IMG/VR virus record: IMGVR_UViG_3300022758_000287
DNA length: 35,739 bases
Strand: one strand, 5' to 3'
From: a virus
Taxonomy: Duplodnaviria > Heunggongvirae > Uroviricota > Caudoviricetes
Numbering within the stretch: the stretch's first letter is position 1; each line of letters opens with the position of its first letter. The position numbers and the translations under genes are program-made. Positions 6,414 through 34,690 of the stretch are shown here, piece by piece. The notes beneath the pieces were generated by a model. The model was not told the origin of the DNA. It saw nothing but the letters and a program-made list of their open reading frames with translations, and made no database searches.

Positions 6414-7111
6414 ACACTTGCTCCTTTCAGTCCTAACTTAGCTTTAATTTCTGCGATCTTCGCCAGCGCCTGAACACGATTTAGAGGTCTGCCGCCCATG
6501 ACAGGAAGTTGTTTTACTGGTTCAGGTATCGTCTCACCACGGTTAATTCGCGCTGTCATACAGGTCAGTTCATCGGCAGCCTTGCGTCGTAATTCCGCGT
6601 CAGTCAGCGCATTGGCCCGCATGTTCTGGTACAGGTTGGTAACCAGCCAGTAGTGCGCGTTCGATTTCCACGGATAAGACTCTGCATCCGGATACAGGCC
6701 TCGCTTCCGGCAATACTCGTAAACCATATCAACCAGCTCGCTGACGTTTGGCAGTCCGGCGATAACGGATGCTTCTTCCCGGCACCATGCAACAAACTGC
6801 CCGGGTGATGGCAGAAATGGTCGATTCTGCCGACGGGCTACGCGCATTCCTGCGTTAACCTGTTCCATTGTGGTGATCCCGTTTTCCCGGAAAGCCAGAA
6901 CCCACTGGCGGCGGATTTCGTTCAGTTCGTTCTGGTCACGGTTAGCCAGACTCGCCGGGAAAGTTGCCAGTAACTGGCTGAACACACCGTTGATGATCTG
7001 CGCTACCTGCTGTACCTGCGGCTTTTCGTCGTACTGTTCCGGCATGTTGTTGGCGATCCGACGCATCTGCTCACGGTCAAAATTAACCATCTGTGCGGCG
7101 ATGTTTTTCAT
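6410..7111 (-). CDS. P: Replication protein P (helicase loader)
   Basis: 233 aa near-identical to lambda P. Confidence 0.95.
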   Translation of the reverse strand: MKNIAAQMVNFDREQMRRIANNMPEQYDEKPQVQQVAQIINGVFSQLLATFPASLANRDQNELNEIRRQWVLAFRENGITTMEQVNAGMRVARRQNRPFLPSPGQFVAWCREEASVIAGLPNVSELVDMVYEYCRKRGLYPDAESYPWKSNAHYWLVTNLYQNMRANALTDAELRRKAADELTCMTARINRGETIPEPVKQLPVMGGRPLNRVQALAKIAEIKAKLGLKGASV

Positions 7112-8008
7112 AAATCCACCCCGTAAATCCAGTCAGTGTTTGTCAGGTCGAGTTTTGGTTTGCAGGCTGTCACACCTGCCTGTTGCTTGTTACGGTTGAT
7201 TTCGAGCTGGGTCCACTTGTCGCGGAGTTTGGCCGGGCTCAGCACGTTACCGGACCAGAAGTTGTCCTGGCATGCCCAGCGGAACAGTACACACATGTCG
7301 CGATGGTTACGTCCGTCACGTTCACGCATCAGGCGGATATCGTTAGCCCACCCTGCAAAATTCGGTTTTCTGGCTGATGGCGCGATGGTCTTCACCATGT
7401 CAAACATCCATTCTGCGGCGGTCAGGTCTTCTGCTGTCCCCCACTTGCTGCCGCTCTGAATTGCAGCATCCGGTTTCACCACAGAAAGGTCGTTTTCTGG
7501 CTGGTCAGAGGATTCGCCAGAATTCTCTGACGAATAATCTTTTCTTTTTTCTTTTGTAATAGTGTCTTTTGTGTCCCCCCTGTTTTGAGGGATAGCAATC
7601 CCCCAATTTGAGGGATGTTTTATCCCTCGTTTTAGGGGATTTTCCCTCGTTTTGAGGGATACACCATTCTGAGATGTTTTTATTTGGTCCAAACATGCCG
7701 CCTTGCTGCTTGATAATATTCATTCTGACGAGTTCTAACTTGGCTTCATTGCACCGTTTGACGGGTAACTTTGTAATCTCGCTAAGTTGAGAATCGGTGA
7801 TTCTGTCCATTGGTTTATTCCATCCATAGGTTTTACGCAGAATGGCAAGCAGCACTTTAAACTGTCGCTTGGTCAGATCTGCGCCTGAATAAGCCTCAAG
7901 CAGCATATTTGATAGTCTGGCGTAACCATCATCGAGATCTGCCACATTACGCTCCTGTTTGGCAAAGTTACCTCTGCAGAAGTTGAGTATTTTTGCTGTA
8001 TTTGTCAT
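7108..8008 (-). CDS. O: Replication initiator O, interrupted by a +1 frameshift inside the ori iteron region
   Basis: N-terminal 140 aa and C-terminal ~150 aa both match lambda O but lie in different frames; switch at the C6 run 7575-7580. Confidence 0.85.
7574..7660. repeat. Replication origin: four iterons (tccct-N-aggga type) inside O, with adjacent AT-rich tract
   Basis: Four ~18-19 bp repeats at 7574-7592, 7598-7616, 7622-7639, 7642-7660; AT-rich run at about 7530-7573. Confidence 0.85.
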
Positions 8009-8040: not shown

Positions 8041-8337
8041 TCAGAATTCCATCTGGATTTGTTCAGAACGCTCGGTTGCCGCCGGGCGTTTTTTATTGGT
8101 GAGTCCATCAAGCGCATACTTAAAAGCCCTGCTAATCGGACTGATGTCTGATGCCATTCCGAAAGCACACAAGACCGAAGCAATAAATCTCCAGTCCGTT
8201 CTGCTTATCTTCGATTCATGACAGCCAATCATCTTTGCCAGACCGCGCTGGGTAATAGCTGACAGATTGATAAGTAAATCTGTTTCTGCGCGATCAACGT
8301 CACGCTGTGATAGTTTGCTGTAACTTGTTCTTTCCAT
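8041..8337 (-). CDS. cII: cII transcriptional activator (chimeric: non-lambda N-terminus, lambda-like C-terminus)
   Basis: C-terminal LTNKKRPAATERSEQIQMEF identical to lambda cII; N-terminal HTH region differs. Confidence 0.8.
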   Translation of the reverse strand: MERTSYSKLSQRDVDRAETDLLINLSAITQRGLAKMIGCHESKISRTDWRFIASVLCAFGMASDISPISRAFKYALDGLTNKKRPAATERSEQIQMEF

Positions 8338-8422
8338 TTCTTAAGATTTCCAATAGTGAATAGTTAGTTGAAAGGTATGCGTGGAAACGCATATGGCCTT
8401 AGTTGGTCAGATATCTTGGAAC

Positions 8423-8468: not shown

Positions 8469-8512
8469 GATCCGCTTATTAAGCGGCTTTGTGTTCCGGC
8501 GGGAACACGTCA

Positions 8513-8695
8513 TCAAGACTGACTTTTGCGCCTAACTTGTTTTAGGCACGCAACAAGAGCACGGCATGTTTTAAGGTCTGGGAAGCGACGACCAGATTCC
8601 CAATGTCCGATAGCTCCCTGTGTGCATCCAACTGCCTTAGCAAGTGTTGTTTGAGAGATATTCAGTGACTCTCGATATTTTCGTAGGTTGCTCAT
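8513..8695 (-). CDS. cro: Cro-like HTH repressor
   Basis: 60 aa HTH protein with ggaggg RBS, divergent from cI. Confidence 0.75.
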   Translation of the reverse strand: MSNLRKYRESLNISQTTLAKAVGCTQGAIGHWESGRRFPDLKTCRALVACLKQVRRKSQS

Positions 8696-8812
8696 ATGCC
8701 CTCCATAGTAAACACGAATAAAAAAATACAATATGTACTTTGCGAATACAAGTAAAAATACACATTGTGCATGGATGGTTCCAGTACAGAGCGTAATAAT
8801 AAGGACATGAAA
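8696..8812. promoter_or_regulatory. cro-cI intergenic region: presumptive oR operators with divergent pR / pRM
   Basis: AT-rich divergent intergenic region with repeated TACAA / TTGTA half-site-like motifs; exact operators not resolved. Confidence 0.4.
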
Positions 8813-9467
<655 letters not shown>

Positions 9468-9506
9468 TGAAACCACTTTTATCTACAATTTACAGGGCGG
9501 TAAACA

Positions 9507-10064
9507 TTGGCAAAAATAGATGATTATCAGCCAAGCCAAGTAGAAGTTGATAAAGTACTTTATTGTAAAAAAATAGTTAACTTTTCTGGCGTTAAATGGA
9601 AACAGAAACCAAGTCGCTCTGATATGTGGCTACAAGCCCATATCATCCCCTTGGATGAGGATTGTATACCTATACAAGGGCTAAAGTTTGAACTGAAATG
9701 GAAACCAGATCAGGATTCAGAACCTGATGACCCGATTTCTTACCCTAAAATAAATATTATTGCTTTCTATCATAACAAGAGGGTTTTCGCGGTAGATACC
9801 TATCACTTTGACAAACACACGAATAGTTACAAGGTCGATCATCCGAAGTACCAAGATATCATTTACGGTGCTCACTACCATGTATACTATGAAGAAGCTG
9901 GATACTATAGTGATAGAATAGCGTTTCCAATCGAAGATGACATAAACCCAGATGACCTGGTAGGGTATTGGAATTACTTCTGTAAACATCTGAACATAAC
10001 TTACTCTGGGAGAATACCTTTACCGCTTGAAGATGAGTCGGGGCAAATGGGGTTTGGAATATGA
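9507..10064 (+). CDS. Hypothetical protein A (185 aa) in the rexA position
   Basis: AT-rich ORF directly after cI; apparent TTG start, or possibly ATG 9467 overlapping the cI stop if the A5 run 9512-9516 is 1 nt too long; no homolog recognised. Confidence 0.6.
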   Translation: MAKIDDYQPSQVEVDKVLYCKKIVNFSGVKWKQKPSRSDMWLQAHIIPLDEDCIPIQGLKFELKWKPDQDSEPDDPISYPKINIIAFYHNKRVFAVDTYHFDKHTNSYKVDHPKYQDIIYGAHYHVYYEEAGYYSDRIAFPIEDDINPDDLVGYWNYFCKHLNITYSGRIPLPLEDESGQMGFGI

Positions 10065-10813
10065 TGTGCTCAACAGTGATCTCACAACTAGGTTTCGAAT
10101 GCCATCCAATAGGCAAGACCTTGAGAATTATCAGTCCATTCACTTACTGTGATGATGGAGAGCATGTCGGTGCCTTTATCCGTGAAGTCAATGGTAGGTA
10201 TTTAGTTAGTGACAGATGCGATGCCTTAATGAATATGGAGGCAAGAGGGATCTCGCTTACCAAAAAACGACTTGATGAGATACGACAATTACTGCTTAAA
10301 GAAGGCGCAGAACTCAATGCTCGAGGAGAAATCATTGCTTGGGCAACAGAAAAGGATGTCGGTGCGATTACATCGAACATAATTAGAGCTGGTATACTCG
10401 CATCAACTTTGTCGTTAGACTGGTATCAGCCAGTTCAAGCTGAAAAGTTTGAAAGTATGGTTATTGATTATCTATATCACACAGAGCTTAGAGACGCACT
10501 TTCTCTTCGTGAAAACGTATATGGCTTGAGTGGACATCAAATTACCGTCCCTGTAACAATAAAAACCGACATACCTAAATACGTTTTTACATCAAGCGTG
10601 AAACACGGAGGAAGCTGGAATAGTGCTTACTCATTGCTTGGGAAACTAATTGATCTTAAAGCTTCAAGTGAGGAGTATAACAACAGATTTGTTGTTATAG
10701 ACAGCGAAGCAATTGGTGATCAAATGCAACAACTCTCCTTACTCTTCCATGAATCAAGCCAAGTTCTACCATTCTCCAAAAGAGAGACTTGGGTTAAGAG
10801 ACTTGCAGCATAA
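10061..10813 (+). CDS. Hypothetical protein B (250 aa) in the rexB position
   Basis: ATGA start/stop overlap with gene A; followed by an intrinsic terminator; no homolog recognised. Confidence 0.65.
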   Translation: MMCSTVISQLGFECHPIGKTLRIISPFTYCDDGEHVGAFIREVNGRYLVSDRCDALMNMEARGISLTKKRLDEIRQLLLKEGAELNARGEIIAWATEKDVGAITSNIIRAGILASTLSLDWYQPVQAEKFESMVIDYLYHTELRDALSLRENVYGLSGHQITVPVTIKTDIPKYVFTSSVKHGGSWNSAYSLLGKLIDLKASSEEYNNRFVVIDSEAIGDQMQQLSLLFHESSQVLPFSKRETWVKRLAA

Positions 10814-10816
10814 TAC

Positions 10817-10845
10817 AACCCGGCCTCAGCGCCGGGTTTTCTTTG
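10817..10845 (+). terminator. Intrinsic terminator ending the cI-A-B operon (tImm-like)
   Basis: Stem aacccggc / gccgggtt with loop ctcagc, followed by ttttctttg. Confidence 0.7.
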
Positions 10846-10989
10846 CCTCACGTTCGCCCACCTAAAAACACATAACCAATTATATTTATTGAAAAATAAA
10901 TAGATGCAACCCACTAAACCACGCAATTCTGATCTCTCCTTACATCGCCGAGGCAATACATCCACGCTAAAAAACAACACTATTAAATA

Positions 10990-11070
10990 CAAAGCGTTAT
11001 AAAAAACCACGCCAACTTACAACAAATTGTATTGATCTTGTAAAGTACATATCGTACTATTTAACCGTCA
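10990..11070 (+). promoter_or_regulatory. Presumptive pL / oL region
   Basis: Position upstream of nutL and N; dyad TACAACAAATTGTA and nearby TTGTA repeats; operators not resolved. Confidence 0.3.
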
Positions 11071-11106: not shown

Positions 11107-11150
11107 GCTCTTTAAACAACGTCGACTCTCGACTACGTGGCTGAAAAGCC
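11107..11150 (+). promoter_or_regulatory. nutL-like site: boxA (gctctttaa) and boxB hairpin (ggctgaaaagcc)
   Basis: boxA-like motif 11107-11115, stem-loop 11139-11150 with the same gaaa loop as the nutR candidate. Confidence 0.5.
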
Positions 11151-11249: not shown

Positions 11250-11522
11250 ATGTCCAGAAAAACAGAATTTAAAGGCACCGCAGCTTCTCGCCGTAGAGCT
11301 CGTCGCGCAAATCTGCAAAGTCAGGAGGCGATCAGCTCCGACAAGCTACACAGGCCAACCCCTTCACGAGTGGTCTTGCAATGCAAGCTCAAACCAGCAA
11401 TGAGAGCAGAAGTGATAACTCTGACAACGTTGACCAGAAAATATGAAGGTTCAACTTGTCTTCCGAACGTAGCTCTTTACGCGGCAGGCTACCGGAAATC
11501 AAAACAACTGACGGCGAGATGA
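11250..11522 (+). CDS. N: N-like antitermination protein (arginine-rich motif)
   Basis: N-terminal arginine-rich motif GTAASRRRARRA; gggagg RBS; first gene after nutL. Confidence 0.55.
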   Translation: MSRKTEFKGTAASRRRARRANLQSQEAISSDKLHRPTPSRVVLQCKLKPAMRAEVITLTTLTRKYEGSTCLPNVALYAAGYRKSKQLTAR

Positions 11523-11538
11523 TAAATTCATTTGCTAA

Positions 11539-12120
11539 TTACTTGTTTTTGCCATGCTTATCCTGAGCGATAAGTTCATCCATAAGGCTGTCTGCCTTCC
11601 CGGCAAACCTAATGTAGCACTCATGTCTATAGCTTTCAGGGATAACGAAACGGTCGGTATCAGGATATCCAACAGCAGGAGGCCTTCGAACGAGGAGTCC
11701 TTTTTTGAGCAATGAAATTGATTCATGAGCGCCCTTTTCCGTTTGTAGCTGGTTATTAGCGGCTACAGCGAATGCCAAATACGCTCTTTCTCCAAGAGTT
11801 AACGAATCAAACAAATCTTGCACATATTTTTCTTCTTTAGATTTGCGCTTCTGAGCAGCGAATACCTCAATTCTTTCAGTCACAGCGTGATAAGCGGAAT
11901 TAACAACGCCGTTAAGCACATAGCTAACGCAAAACAACAGGATGTAATACATCCAGTAATGAGGAAGGATTTCTGGACTATGCAGGTTTATCCATTCTTT
12001 TACGCTTACCGGCATAACAATAATCAATATGATCAGGATGATTAGCATATGAATCAACTGTTTAAGTGTCATTCCTTGCAGGAAAAAATGCATTAGTTCC
12101 TGCCACCATGAGTTGTTCAT
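11539..12120 (-). CDS. sieB: Superinfection exclusion protein SieB
   Basis: 193 aa near-identical to remembered lambda SieB. Confidence 0.9.
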   Translation of the reverse strand: MNNSWWQELMHFFLQGMTLKQLIHMLIILIILIIVMPVSVKEWINLHSPEILPHYWMYYILLFCVSYVLNGVVNSAYHAVTERIEVFAAQKRKSKEEKYVQDLFDSLTLGERAYLAFAVAANNQLQTEKGAHESISLLKKGLLVRRPPAVGYPDTDRFVIPESYRHECYIRFAGKADSLMDELIAQDKHGKNK

Positions 12121-12350: not shown

Positions 12351-12433
12351 TACAAATCAATGGTGTGGGCAAGTACGAACTACGGCCAATGATTGCCAGA
12401 GAACTTGGTAAACAGAACAACAAAGCTGCCTGA
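12334..12433 (+). pseudogene. ral: ral (restriction alleviation) remnant: internal deletion plus frameshift
   Basis: Ral N-terminus MTTTIDTNQWCGQ and C-terminus MIARELGKQNNKAA are ~20 codons apart and in different frames. Confidence 0.6.
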
Positions 12434-12984: not shown

Positions 12985-13056
12985 GCGCGGCGTTACCGCA
13001 TACCAATTACGCTTCACTCGAGGCGTTTTTCGTTATGTATAAATAAGGAGCACACC

Positions 13057-13221
13057 ATGCAATATGCCATTGCAGGGTGGCCTGTTGCTGGCTGCCCTTC
13101 CGAATCTTTACTTGAACGAATCACCCGTAAATTACGTGACGGATGGAAACGCCTTATCGACATACTTAATCAGCCAGGAGTCCCAAAAAATGGATCAAAC
13201 AATTATGGCTATCCAGACTAA
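13057..13221 (+). CDS. cIII: cIII (FtsH inhibitor)
   Basis: 54 aa [54 protein letters not shown], matching lambda cIII. Confidence 0.9.
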   Translation: MQYAIAGWPVAGCPSESLLERITRKLRDGWKRLIDILNQPGVPKNGSNNYGYPD

Positions 13222-20694: not shown

Positions 20695-20703
20695 AAAATA
20701 GCC

Positions 20704-20741
20704 AGTTTTGGGGAAGGGTTTTGGGGAAAGTTTTGGGGAAG
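20704..20741 (+). repeat. Three tandem GTTTTGGGGAA(G/A) repeats; candidate Int arm-type binding sites
   Basis: agttttggggaag, ggttttggggaaa, gttttggggaag in direct tandem just after the int stop. Confidence 0.5.
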
Positions 20742-20751
20742 ATTTTACATC

Positions 20752-20784
20752 ATCATAAAACAACGGGCGTGTTATACGCCCGTT
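20752..20784 (-). terminator. Intrinsic terminator 3' of the icd fragment, possibly bidirectional for int
   Basis: Perfect 9-bp stem aacgggcgt / acgcccgtt with loop gttat; U-run on the minus strand. Confidence 0.55.
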
Positions 20785-20807
20785 ACAATATTTAACACAT
20801 GTAGTGA

Positions 20808-20972
20808 TTACATATTCTTGATGATCGCATCACCAAACTCTGAACATTTCAGCAGCTTAGCGCCTTCCATCAGACGTTCGAAGTCATAGGTTACGGTCTT
20901 CGCATTGATTGCGCCTTCCATACCTTTAACAATCAGGTCTGCGGCTTCAGTCCAGCCCATATGGCGCAGCAG
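20808..20972 (-). pseudogene. icd: Phage-borne 3' fragment of isocitrate dehydrogenase (last 54 codons plus stop, 165 nt), containing the attP crossover region
   Basis: Translates to [54 protein letters not shown], matching the Icd C-terminus; homology stops abruptly at 20972. Confidence 0.85.
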
Positions 20973-21091
20973 TATATAAAAATTATGTATTCAACTCGCT
21001 GATATTTAATCATAAATATTATTTTCTTGTCTTTGTATTAGCCAAAATCAACTTTATTCAACCGTTTGATTTCATTGACGTTCGTTTTTAT

Positions 21092-21103
21092 TTTGGGGAA
21101 AGA
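21092..21103 (+). repeat. Fourth copy of the TTTTGGGGAAAG motif on the other side of the icd core
   Basis: ttttggggaaag about 120 bp beyond the icd-homology boundary. Confidence 0.4.
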
Positions 21104-21431
21104 TTTTCTCTACCATTTATATCAAAATTACAAGTCTACATTTTATTAACATCTCAATACATGTGTGGCCTTGCAAGCCATTGCGAGGCCTTATGTGTCT
21201 CAGTTTTGTCCCGCCTTGTATTACGACTTGCATAGCCAATGAAGATAAACGTGACGACAAACAAAGCAGCTGTCTTCTTTTCTTTCACACTTTCCCCACT
21301 CAGCAGCATGCATACCTTCTACTATAACTGTAGTGAATGTCTATTATGAGCGAACTGCGGACATCGTGGAGACAACATGCTGCTGGGTGCGGATATCCCA
21401 TGGCACGTCATATCGCTCGCCGTATTACTTG

Positions 21432-33989: not shown

Positions 33990-34690
33990 TTACTGCGAAA
34001 GTTTGTTAATGGAAAGGAAGCCGCCAAAGTTGCCGACGTTATTGCGAAACTTACAGCCGCTCAGGCATTTGCTGCATTTATCCTTCGTGATATCGGAAGT
34101 CGGCTGATCATATTCATCCGCGACCGCCGGACCGTGATAACCGCACTCATCACCGCGATAGGTCCAGGTGCAGGTATTAGCCAGCATGATGCGCCCCCGG
34201 AAAAAACGGCACCATCCGTTTCCGTCGGTGTGGACAGTACAAAGGAGGCACTGACCGCACTCAGTTCGCTGCACTGCTCGATGCGCCAGCGGCTGATCAC
34301 CTCCTGCTCCGGATCGGCGTCGCTGTTTCCGTTGACGAAGTTCACCGCATCCAGAAAACGGGCGTAAACCTTACGCCTGACCACCGTTCCGCCGACCAGA
34401 CTCTGCAGATCTTCCACCATCCCGGTGACCATACCGTACAGGTTAGAAACCGTCAGCGTGGGGCGCGTACTGGTGCCTTTGCCATTCAGTTCAAAACCAC
34501 TCCCCTGAATGGGATACGGCTGATACTGTCGCCCCTGCCAGGTGACCGGCTCACCTTTTTCGTTCTGCTCATTACAGAAAAAATAACGTTCTCCACCGAC
34601 CTCTGTCAGATCGATTTCCCAGAGCACCACGCTGGCCGACTGCTCCGCACGGGTGCATTCATTCAATGTTTCCTGCCGGATATCCTGCAT
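33990..34690 (-). CDS. L: Tail tip protein L, interrupted by two adjacent +1 insertions
   Basis: N-terminal ~170 aa and C-terminal ~60 aa both match lambda L in different frames; switch at the adjacent C5 and A6 runs 34194-34206. Confidence 0.85.

What the first reader, a model, noticed from the sequence alone, without database searches (positions are those of the whole stretch)
9467..10845. Uncharacterised two-gene cassette in the rexAB slot of the immunity operon: candidate prophage-encoded defence system
Two ORFs (185 and 250 aa) sit directly after cI on the same strand, overlap each other by ATGA, and are closed by a strong intrinsic terminator just before pL, nutL and N. That is exactly where lambda carries rexA-rexB. 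Neither protein resembles RexA, RexB or any family I recognise, and neither looks membrane-embedded the way RexB is. The segment is visibly AT-rich compared with the flanking cI and N, which suggests horizontal acquisition. Gene A may be translationally coupled to cI: an ATG at 9467 overlaps the cI stop and would read straight into gene A if the A5 run at 9512-9516 were one base shorter.
Basis: partly seen in the sequence, partly recalled or inferred. Interest (0 to 1): 0.8.

Follow-up and report, generated by a model that had tools for sequence, protein, structure and literature searches.

The report
Untested defence-like gene pair replacing rexAB
A lambda-like E. coli phage carries, exactly where lambda has its rexA-rexB exclusion genes, a conserved pair of soluble proteins of unknown mechanism that two published computational screens flag as likely anti-phage defence genes, but that nobody appears to have tested.

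Summary
Gene A (9507-10064, TTG start, 185 aa) and gene B (10061-10813, 250 aa) overlap by ATGA. They follow cI by 39 nt and end at a strong terminator (10817-10845), ahead of oL/pL and N. The segment 9469-10816 replaces lambda rexA-rexB base-for-base at both junctions.

Both genes are under strong purifying selection. They are always adjacent, and in about 90 prophage loci from Enterobacterales and Aeromonas they sit just downstream of at least 19 different repressor types.

The pair is uncharacterised but already catalogued:
- B is a DUF1828 protein. Its N-domain has a YbjN/type III-chaperone-like fold and its C-domain a restriction-endonuclease (PD-(D/E)xK) fold without the canonical catalytic motif.
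- A has a confidently predicted fold with no PDB match and a conserved D-HxN-HxH cluster.
- Both hit the two subunits of PADLOC's untested candidate PDC-M24. A's hit is weak; B's is full-length.
- These exact RefSeq proteins are listed as "Predicted novel defense gene" in DefensePredictor (Science 2026), but were not among the 94 units tested there.

The suggested cI-A frameshift fusion is refuted. The cI, cro and O frameshifts in this window look like sequencing errors.

Verdict: a plausible, testable defence candidate, not a new discovery.

The parts
8771..9467 (+). cI repressor (HTH_3 plus Peptidase_S24). It is frameshifted in this window by an extra A at 9155-9161. The intact homologue is 231 aa.
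9467..9523 (+). 18-codon upstream ORF ([18 protein letters not shown]). It overlaps the cI stop and the gene A start. Significance unknown.
   Evidence: read from the sequence; the A5 run is unchanged in related records
9469..10816 (+). The exchanged module. Homology to lambda and HK542 stops at 9468-9470 and resumes at 10817. It replaces lambda rexA-rexB. GC is 39.5%.
9507..10064 (+). Gene A: 185 aa, TTG start, soluble. Belongs to phrog_2017. Weak matches to DUF6978 and PDC-M24A. Confident predicted fold with no PDB match. Conserved residues D97, H104, N106, G121, H123, H125.
10061..10813 (+). Gene B: 250 aa. Belongs to phrog_1960. DUF1828 N-domain (about residues 1-117) with a YbjN/T3SS-chaperone-like fold. 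C-domain (about 128-250) with a PD-(D/E)xK-like fold. Full-length match to PDC-M24B.
10817..10845 (+). Intrinsic terminator closing the cI-A-B transcript. It is homologous to the sequence just after lambda rexB.
   Evidence: I12
11022..11062 (+). oL/pL region. Its operator-like sequences are inverted copies of those at oR (8721-8741).
   Evidence: I1, I10
11107..11133 (+). Putative nutL: boxA-like GCTCTTTAA followed by the hairpin GTCGA-CTC-TCGAC.
   Evidence: read from the sequence; hairpin listed; not tested further
11250..11522 (+). Antiterminator N
   Evidence: PF25694, E 1.5e-32
11539..12120 (-). sieB superinfection-exclusion gene, a second exclusion function next to the cassette

Best explanation
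A and B form a two-protein module that the prophage expresses during lysogeny. It is most likely an anti-phage (superinfection exclusion or abortive-infection type) system. It belongs to a prophage-adapted branch of the catalogued but untested candidate family PDC-M24.

Shown:
- The pair is co-transcribed in the sense direction 39 nt after cI with no intervening terminator, and it ends at the lambda-type terminator before pL.
- A and B are strictly co-inherited and overlap, with the ATGA/TATGATG junction conserved.
- Both are soluble and under purifying selection.
- B combines a protein-binding-type fold (YbjN/type III secretion chaperone-like) with a restriction-endonuclease-fold domain.
- A has a conserved Asp/His/Asn/His-x-His cluster on a fold with no solved relative.

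Inferred:
- The two proteins form a complex.
- An incoming heterologous phage supplies a cue, sensed through B's N-domain or through A.
- That cue unleashes an enzymatic activity, either A's putative metal centre or B's nuclease-fold domain acting through its invariant Ser157-Gly-His159/Asp198/Arg209 residues. This activity acts on nucleic acid and blocks phage growth.
- The near-universal GTG/TTG start of gene A in prophages keeps A low on the abundant repressor transcript. Environmental relatives use ATG instead.
For: Position and operon logic:
- Exact replacement of rexAB.
- Terminator present.
- No promoter signal above chance inside the cassette.

Conserved linkage:
- In 92 loci (12 genome loci, 80 IMG/VR loci), A is always directly upstream of B.
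- An S24-type repressor ORF lies just upstream on the same strand in most loci. These ORFs fall into at least 19 clusters.

Independent defence predictions:
- A hits PDC-M24A (E 4.8e-4) and B hits PDC-M24B (E 4.7e-10, full length).
- PDC-M systems are multi-gene cassettes found embedded in BREX, DISARM or type I RM loci (bioRxiv 10.1101/2024.01.29.577857).
- DefensePredictor Table S5 lists WP_000968518.1 (log-odds 5.64) and WP_001062368.1 (4.90) in one operon as 'Predicted novel defense gene' (PMC13092281).

Folds:
- A model: pLDDT 85.5, pTM 0.84.

Conserved residues.

Wider family:
- 58 of 68 metagenomic motif hits encode an A-like ORF. A B-like ORF follows directly wherever enough downstream sequence is held.
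- Some of these pairs lie next to type II or type III RM genes.

Other support:
- The same slot holds the proven defence systems RexAB and BstA (PMC8585504).
- Purifying selection on both genes.
- The pair is carried by the deposited phage genomes PhiR57_1 and ev017/ev207.
Against: - I found no phenotype for this pair. It was not among the 94 units tested by DefensePredictor, and PDC systems are explicitly untested.
- A's matches to PDC-M24A and DUF6978 are weak, partial and below Pfam's threshold (22 bits against 29.6).
- B's nuclease-fold domain lacks a recognisable D...(D/E)xK motif. hmmscan does not detect DUF1829 in any of 20 orthologues.
- A has no fold relative that could suggest an activity.
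- The neighbourhoods of environmental relatives are mixed, with housekeeping, mobile-element and RM genes. They are not clearly defence islands.
- Guilt by position is indirect. lambda RexA itself also has a non-defence role in the lysis-lysogeny switch.
Confidence: 0.55

Rival explanations
1. The pair is a regulator of the phage's own life cycle rather than a defence against other phages. This would resemble the reported role of lambda RexA in biasing the switch from lysogeny to lytic growth. B's nuclease-fold domain would act as a non-catalytic DNA-binding module.
For: - Strict linkage to the repressor gene across at least 19 repressor clusters.
- B lacks the canonical PD-(D/E)xK catalytic motif.
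- The only validated DUF1829-containing protein, DS-6B/HipAD, is proposed to bind DNA and its partner rather than cut (PMC13092281).
- The RexA precedent is mentioned in the abstract of PMC11077077.
Against: - Relatives of the pair occur in environmental bacteria with no hit in the viral contig collection. There, no phage switch exists to regulate.
- The same pair is attached to many unrelated repressors and operators, which argues against sequence-specific switch control.
- PhiR57_1 and lambda share cI C-terminal, terminator and nearby early-region sequences around different cassettes, so the slot content looks optional.
Confidence: 0.12
2. The pair is a toxin-antitoxin-like addiction or stabilisation module that penalises loss of the prophage. 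Any anti-phage effect would be secondary.
For: - Two overlapping, translationally coupled genes with strict co-inheritance.
- The start codon of the upstream gene is kept weak in prophages, which suggests dosage matters.
- Many TA modules double as abortive-infection systems (general knowledge).
Against: - Both proteins are large for type II TA components.
- Neither has a recognisable antitoxin DNA-binding domain or a known toxin fold.
- No TA family hit in Pfam, NCBIfam or PADLOC.
Confidence: 0.1
3. The pair is a lysogenic-conversion cargo that benefits the host in a way unrelated to phages, such as stress tolerance, metabolism or virulence, as with other morons of this phage.
For: - The phage carries other host-fitness cargo, including sitABCD, bor and a porin gene (annotation of PhiR57_1).
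- The cassette is common in ExPEC, APEC and Nissle-type strains.
- bstA, in the same slot, was first linked to virulence phenotypes (PMC8585504).
Against: - Both proteins are cytoplasmic, with no signal peptide or membrane segment.
- Two independent predictors trained or curated on defence contexts flag them.
- Relatives lie next to RM genes in some environmental loci.
Confidence: 0.12

Closest known systems
lambda RexA-RexB exclusion system
   Same: - Identical genomic slot, with identical recombination junctions at the cI 3' end and the terminator before oL/pL.
- A two-gene cassette co-transcribed with cI in the lysogen.
   Different: - No sequence or profile similarity (hhalign probability 0.1%).
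- A and B do not hit the PADLOC RexA/RexB models, which lambda's own proteins hit at 1e-108 and 9e-61.
- No membrane protein equivalent to RexB.
PADLOC candidate PDC-M24 (cassette CAS_00098, FAM_00129>>FAM_00065; Payne et al. 2024 preprint)
   Same: - Same gene order and sizes.
- B matches PDC-M24B over its full length (E 4.7e-10).
- A matches PDC-M24A over its C-terminal conserved core (E 4.8e-4).
- The wider A-B superfamily keeps the overlapping two-gene layout.
   Different: - PDC-M24 was defined from copies embedded in BREX, DISARM or type I RM loci and is itself untested.
- This branch lives in prophage repressor operons, uses GTG/TTG starts for A, and is divergent enough that A scores only 18 bits.
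BstA (Salmonella prophage BTP1) abortive-infection protein
   Same: - Encoded directly downstream of the prophage repressor, presumably on its transcript.
- That architecture is conserved across many prophages (PMC8585504).
   Different: - BstA is a single protein with its own anti-BstA DNA element.
- No BstA model appears among the PADLOC hits for A or B.
DS-6/HipAD (DefensePredictor; validated) protein DS-6B
   Same: Contains a DUF1829 domain (PD-(D/E)xK clan) fused to a different N-terminal DUF, within a two-gene defence system (PMC13092281).
   Different: - Its partner is a HipA-family kinase and its N-domain is DUF3037, not DUF1828.
- It has no A-like protein.
PD-(D/E)xK effector nucleases such as Can2/Card1 and type II restriction enzymes (PspGI, NgoMIV, BstEII)
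   Different: - Sequence identity is only 9-13%.
- The canonical D...(D/E)xK residues are not conserved. Ser157, His159, Asp198 and Arg209 are invariant instead.
- No CARF or DNA-recognition domain.

Membership tests
lambda RexAB | A RexA homologue is present | tested here: not met
   No RexA hit among the PADLOC results for A or B at E<=1. The positive control, lambda RexA, scores 1.3e-108. hhalign probability 0.1%.
lambda RexAB | RexB, a small polytopic membrane protein | tested here: not met
   Maximum 19-residue hydropathy is 0.45 for A and 1.19 for B, against 2.39 for RexB. hhalign probability 0.1%.
lambda RexAB | Location between cI and the terminator before pL, on the cI transcript | tested here: met
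   Junctions at 9468 and 10817 coincide with the ends of lambda rexA-rexB.
PADLOC PDC-M24 (candidate, untested) | Subunit B matches the PDC-M24B model | tested here: met
   PDLC04540: E 4.7e-10, 37.5 bits, residues 2-249 against model positions 4-254 of 256.
PADLOC PDC-M24 (candidate, untested) | Subunit A matches the PDC-M24A model | tested here: inconclusive
   PDLC04536: E 4.8e-4, 18 bits, covering only residues 104-163. Remote relatives of A give similarly weak hits.
PADLOC PDC-M24 (candidate, untested) | A and B adjacent, co-directional, in the order A then B | tested here: met
   True in all 92 prophage loci and in the metagenomic relatives.
PADLOC PDC-M24 (candidate, untested) | Embedded within BREX, DISARM or type I RM loci (the basis of the candidate call) | tested here: not met
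   Here the pair sits in a prophage repressor operon. A few environmental relatives lie next to type II or type III RM genes.
Pfam DUF1828 (PF08861) | Score above the gathering threshold | tested here: met
   33.5 bits against 22, residues 26-110. All 20 orthologues match.
Pfam DUF1829 (PF08862, PD-(D/E)xK clan) | Sequence match to the family model | tested here: inconclusive
PD-(D/E)xK nucleases | Conserved catalytic D...(D/E)xK residues | tested here: not met
   The family-wide invariant residues of the C-domain are G155, S157, G158, H159, W186, G194, D198, R209 and W244. No D/ExK pair is conserved. The 3D arrangement could not be inspected.
Pfam DUF6978 (PF22398) | Score above the gathering threshold | tested here: not met
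   22.0 bits against 29.6, C-terminal third only.
Validated anti-phage defence system | Reduces phage plating when expressed; loss of function on mutation | not testable with these tools
   No experimental report found. The pair is absent from DefensePredictor Tables S6-S8 of tested units. Brenes & Laub 2025 could not be read.

The most novel reading that the evidence does not exclude
The pair is a genuine, mechanistically new defence family. The catalytic or sensing heart would be protein A, a fold with no solved relative carrying an invariant D-HxN-HxH centre. It would work with protein B, whose chaperone-like domain captures a phage protein and whose restriction-enzyme-fold domain has been rewired around a Ser-His-Asp-Arg site. 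A dedicated prophage lineage of the family would have become a standard passenger of repressor operons across Enterobacterales and Aeromonas, with gene A deliberately throttled by GTG/TTG starts.
Probability: 0.3. Interest if true: 0.7.

Novelty: new member of a known kind. Interest (0 to 1): 0.45.

Why it matters
If the pair defends, it adds a third unrelated system, after RexAB and BstA, to the repressor-operon slot of lambdoid phages. It would also give the first phenotype to the PDC-M24/DUF1828 family.

It is carried by about 4% of complete E. coli genomes, including Nissle 1917, UTI89, ATCC 25922 and APEC O1. That makes it relevant to phage therapy against ExPEC and to the phage resistance of the Nissle probiotic.

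Protein A's unmatched fold, and B's nuclease fold without the nuclease motif, make the biochemistry potentially new.

The value is tempered in two ways. The slot is a known hotspot, and the genes are already listed as predicted defence genes.

Tried and rejected
- cI-A fusion by frameshift: rejected.
- Rex homology: none.
- Membrane effector: none.
- PDB sequence homologues: none for A, only noise for B.
- NCBIfam: nothing.
- DUF1829 by hmmscan: not detected.
- Rfam across the window: only the cIII thermoregulator.
- Internal promoters: not above chance.
- Literature. "DUF1828", "DUF6978" and "PDC-M24" return no relevant main-text paper. The PhiR57 phage names return nothing relevant.
- Brenes & Laub 2025 is not held.
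- The Nissle 'phage repressor' study cloned cII, not this cassette.
- Locus searches with the remote-A alignment or a single remote protein failed. A degenerate DNA motif then worked.
- Neighbourhood survey of environmental relatives: mixed, and not decisive for a defence-island association.
- The genome-contig scan gave only 8 close loci.
Full report
WHAT IS THERE

The window is a lambda-like phage genome. The immunity region reads, left to right:
- O (7108-8008, minus strand)
- cII (8041-8337, minus strand)
- cro (about 8479-8696, minus strand)
- cI (8771-9467, plus strand)
- gene A (9507-10064)
- gene B (10061-10813)
- an intrinsic terminator (10817-10845)
- oL/pL (about 11022-11062)
- a boxA-plus-hairpin nutL candidate (11107-11133)
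- N (11250-11522)
- sieB (11539-12120, minus strand)

These assignments rest. Pfam confirms cI (HTH_3 and Peptidase_S24), CII, N (PF25694, E 1.5e-32) and SieB. A and B overlap by ATGA. RefSeq and GenBank annotate the same two CDS in E. coli Nissle 1917 and in phage PhiR57_1.

THE SLOT

Similarity to lambda and to HK542 runs through the 3' half of cI up to 9468-9470. It resumes at 10817, which in lambda is the stop codon of rexB and the terminator behind it. So 9469-10816 (1,348 bp) replaces rexA-rexB exactly. HK542 and HK244 carry a third, unrelated two-gene pair between the same junctions.

The cassette is 39.5% GC with GC3 of 0.34-0.36. cI is 46.6%, N is 49.5% and the whole window is 48.0%.

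THE GENES ARE REAL AND WIDESPREAD

- The 9400-10900 stretch is covered at 80% or more in 239 of 5,426 complete E. coli genomes. These include Nissle 1917, UTI89, ATCC 25922, S88 and APEC O1. All 30 listed records are 100% identical.
- It is 100% identical in phages ev017, ev207, PhiR57_1 and PhiR63_2.
- The exact proteins occur on at least 1,000 contigs. Every source names them "hypothetical" or "DUF1828 domain-containing".
- Orthologues occur in Salmonella, Klebsiella, Yersinia, Providencia, Xenorhabdus, Pantoea, Thorsellia and Aeromonas, among others. Identity is 36-71% for A and 47-84% for B.
- Synonymous sites are saturated while dN is 0.11-0.63, so both genes are under strong purifying selection.

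CONSERVED ARCHITECTURE

I examined 92 loci: 12 from genomes and 80 from IMG/VR.
- A always lies directly upstream of B, with the stop and start codons overlapping or immediately adjacent.
- In most loci an ORF with the S24 motif lies immediately upstream on the same strand.
- These upstream ORFs fall into 23 clusters, 19 of them S24-type.
- The same 100%-identical E. coli cassette is attached to at least two or three different repressors (loci L019-L045).

Gene A starts with GTG or TTG in all but two loci (ATG in Thorsellia; an ATT in L045, which may be an alignment offset). A branch of the family in environmental metagenomes was recovered with a degenerate HEHxW...YAEP DNA motif. It keeps the overlapping A-then-B layout: 58 of 68 hits have an A-like ORF, followed by a B-like ORF wherever enough downstream sequence is held. 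Where the start can be aligned, this branch uses ATG (14 of 14). The same motif has no hit in the viral contig collection.

Family A is small. Only 32 clusters at 50% identity reach E<=1e-3 among 1.84 billion representative proteins.

THE CI-A FUSION IDEA

The ATG at 9467 opens only an 18-codon ORF ending at 9523.
- The A5 run is unchanged in the two reference records aligned base by base, and the surrounding stretch is 100% identical in every listed record.
- The N-terminus MAK is invariant across the 18 orthologues aligned. In the genome loci inspected, their upstream DNA shows no resemblance to that of the window.

The TTG at 9507 is therefore the start, as RefSeq has it. The fusion is rejected.

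WHAT THE PROTEINS LOOK LIKE

Gene B:
- It hits DUF1828 above threshold (33.5 bits against 22), phrog_1960 (E 1.6e-106) and PADLOC PDC-M24B over its full length (E 4.7e-10).
- Its AlphaFold model has pLDDT 81 and pTM 0.70, with two domains.
- hmmscan does not find DUF1829 in any orthologue. The HHpred annotation in DefensePredictor's Table S5 gives DUF1829 (PD-(D/E)xK clan) at 98.8% for residues 155-241.
- The canonical D...(D/E)xK residues are not conserved. Across prophage and environmental members the invariant residues are D32, G33 and D51 in the N-domain, and G155, S157, G158, H159, W186, G194, D198, R209 and W244 in the C-domain.
- Nuclease activity is therefore possible but not established.

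Gene A:
- It hits phrog_2017 (E 6e-67). It hits DUF6978 only weakly (22 bits against a 29.6 threshold) and PDC-M24A weakly (E 4.8e-4), both over its C-terminal core.
- K22, W31, R92, N106, H123, H125, F158 and P173 are invariant across the superfamily. D97, H104, G121 and Q180 are conserved in at least 90% of sequences. This suggests a metal-binding or catalytic site.

Both proteins are soluble. Neither resembles RexA or RexB.

WHAT IS ALREADY KNOWN

- PADLOC's PDC-M entries are multi-gene "phage defence candidates" found embedded in BREX, DISARM or type I RM loci, and they are explicitly untested. PDC-M24 is cassette CAS_00098 (bioRxiv 10.1101/2024.01.29.577857).
- DefensePredictor (PMC13092281) lists WP_000968518.1 (mean log-odds 5.64) and WP_001062368.1 (4.90), in one operon of an ECOR genome, among its "uncharacterized" clusters as "Predicted novel defense gene". 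The cutoff is 4.
- The pair is absent from that paper's tables of the 94 tested and 42 validated units. The validated DUF1829 protein there is a different one, DS-6B/HipAD.
- The cI-N interval is a recognised mosaic hotspot that holds RexAB in lambda and BstA in BTP1 (PMC8585504).
- I could not read Brenes & Laub 2025, the likely source of PhiR57_1 and PhiR63_2. The deposited records call both genes hypothetical.

INTERPRETATION

The best-supported reading (confidence about 0.55) is a lysogen-expressed two-protein anti-phage module. It would be a prophage-adapted, divergent branch of the candidate family PDC-M24.

The mechanistic steps are inference and carry much lower confidence:
- A and B form a complex.
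- A phage cue is sensed through B's chaperone-like domain or through A.
- An enzymatic attack follows, through A's His/Asp centre or B's nuclease-fold domain.

The rivals are a role in the phage's own switch, an addiction module, and a host-fitness cargo. None is excluded.

The neighbourhoods of environmental relatives are mixed. They include some type II and type III RM genes and integrases, but also housekeeping genes. That evidence is only mildly supportive.

VERDICT

However, the pair is a catalogued, computationally predicted and still untested candidate in a known hotspot, so novelty and surprise are moderate. It is a good, cheap experimental target. It is common in clinically and commercially important E. 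coli, and protein A has an unmatched fold.

SIDE OBSERVATIONS

- The window differs from PhiR57_1 by about 25 single-base indels, mostly changes in the length of short single-base runs. Three of them break O, cro and cI. None is shared by any complete E. coli genome. They look like sequencing errors, and none lies in the cassette.
- The primers for the "phage repressor pr" gene reported to protect K-12 in the Nissle study map to cII, not cI.

Noticed in passing
window 7575-7580, 8540-8543, 9155-9161 (and about 20 further sites, e.g. 30-282, 1667-1809, 4886, 12373-12387, 22905, 34198-34201): The window differs from phage PhiR57_1 by about 25 single-base indels, mostly changes in the length of short single-base runs. 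Three of them frameshift O, cro and cI. No complete E. coli genome shares those three, so they are probably sequencing errors in the source record rather than a defective prophage.
   Followed up: yes
window 8041-8337 (minus strand); primer sites 8123-8140 and 8365-8383: The primers for the 'phage repressor (pr, EcN_1294)' of E. coli Nissle 1917 map onto the cII homologue, not cI. Bury et al. 2018 reported that this gene cut lambda and Stx-phage plating about 200-fold. The published effect is therefore likely CII overexpression.
   Followed up: partly
L003 (phage HK542) 2619-3670; same junctions as window 9469-10816: HK542 and HK244 carry a different two-gene pair (144 and 206 aa, overlapping) in exactly the same slot. 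It has no PADLOC hit and no significant Pfam hit, so it is another uncharacterised cassette in this hotspot.
   Followed up: partly
window 9467-9523: An 18-codon ORF starts within the cI stop (TGATGA) and ends 14 nt past the TTG start of gene A. It might couple or modulate gene A translation. It is identical across the closely related E. coli records compared.
   Followed up: no
gene A start, window 9507; loci L004-L098 compared with L099-L166: Gene A uses GTG or TTG in about 90 prophage loci, but ATG in 14 of 14 alignable environmental relatives. This suggests selection for low translation of A when it rides on the repressor transcript.
   Followed up: partly
window 13044-13102: Rfam match to the lambda cIII thermoregulator RNA element (RF01804, 88.5 bits).
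   Followed up: no
window 20695-21153 and flanks: The window is in phage (attP-joined) order. The integrase end of PhiR57_1 is followed, after about 460 bp, by the far end of the prophage map, which carries the sitABCD manganese/iron transporter cargo (about 22.9-26.3 kb in the window, by correspondence with PhiR57_1).
   Followed up: partly
window 11539-12120 (minus strand): A sieB superinfection-exclusion gene lies immediately beyond N, so the phage carries at least two exclusion or defence-type functions around pL.
   Followed up: partly
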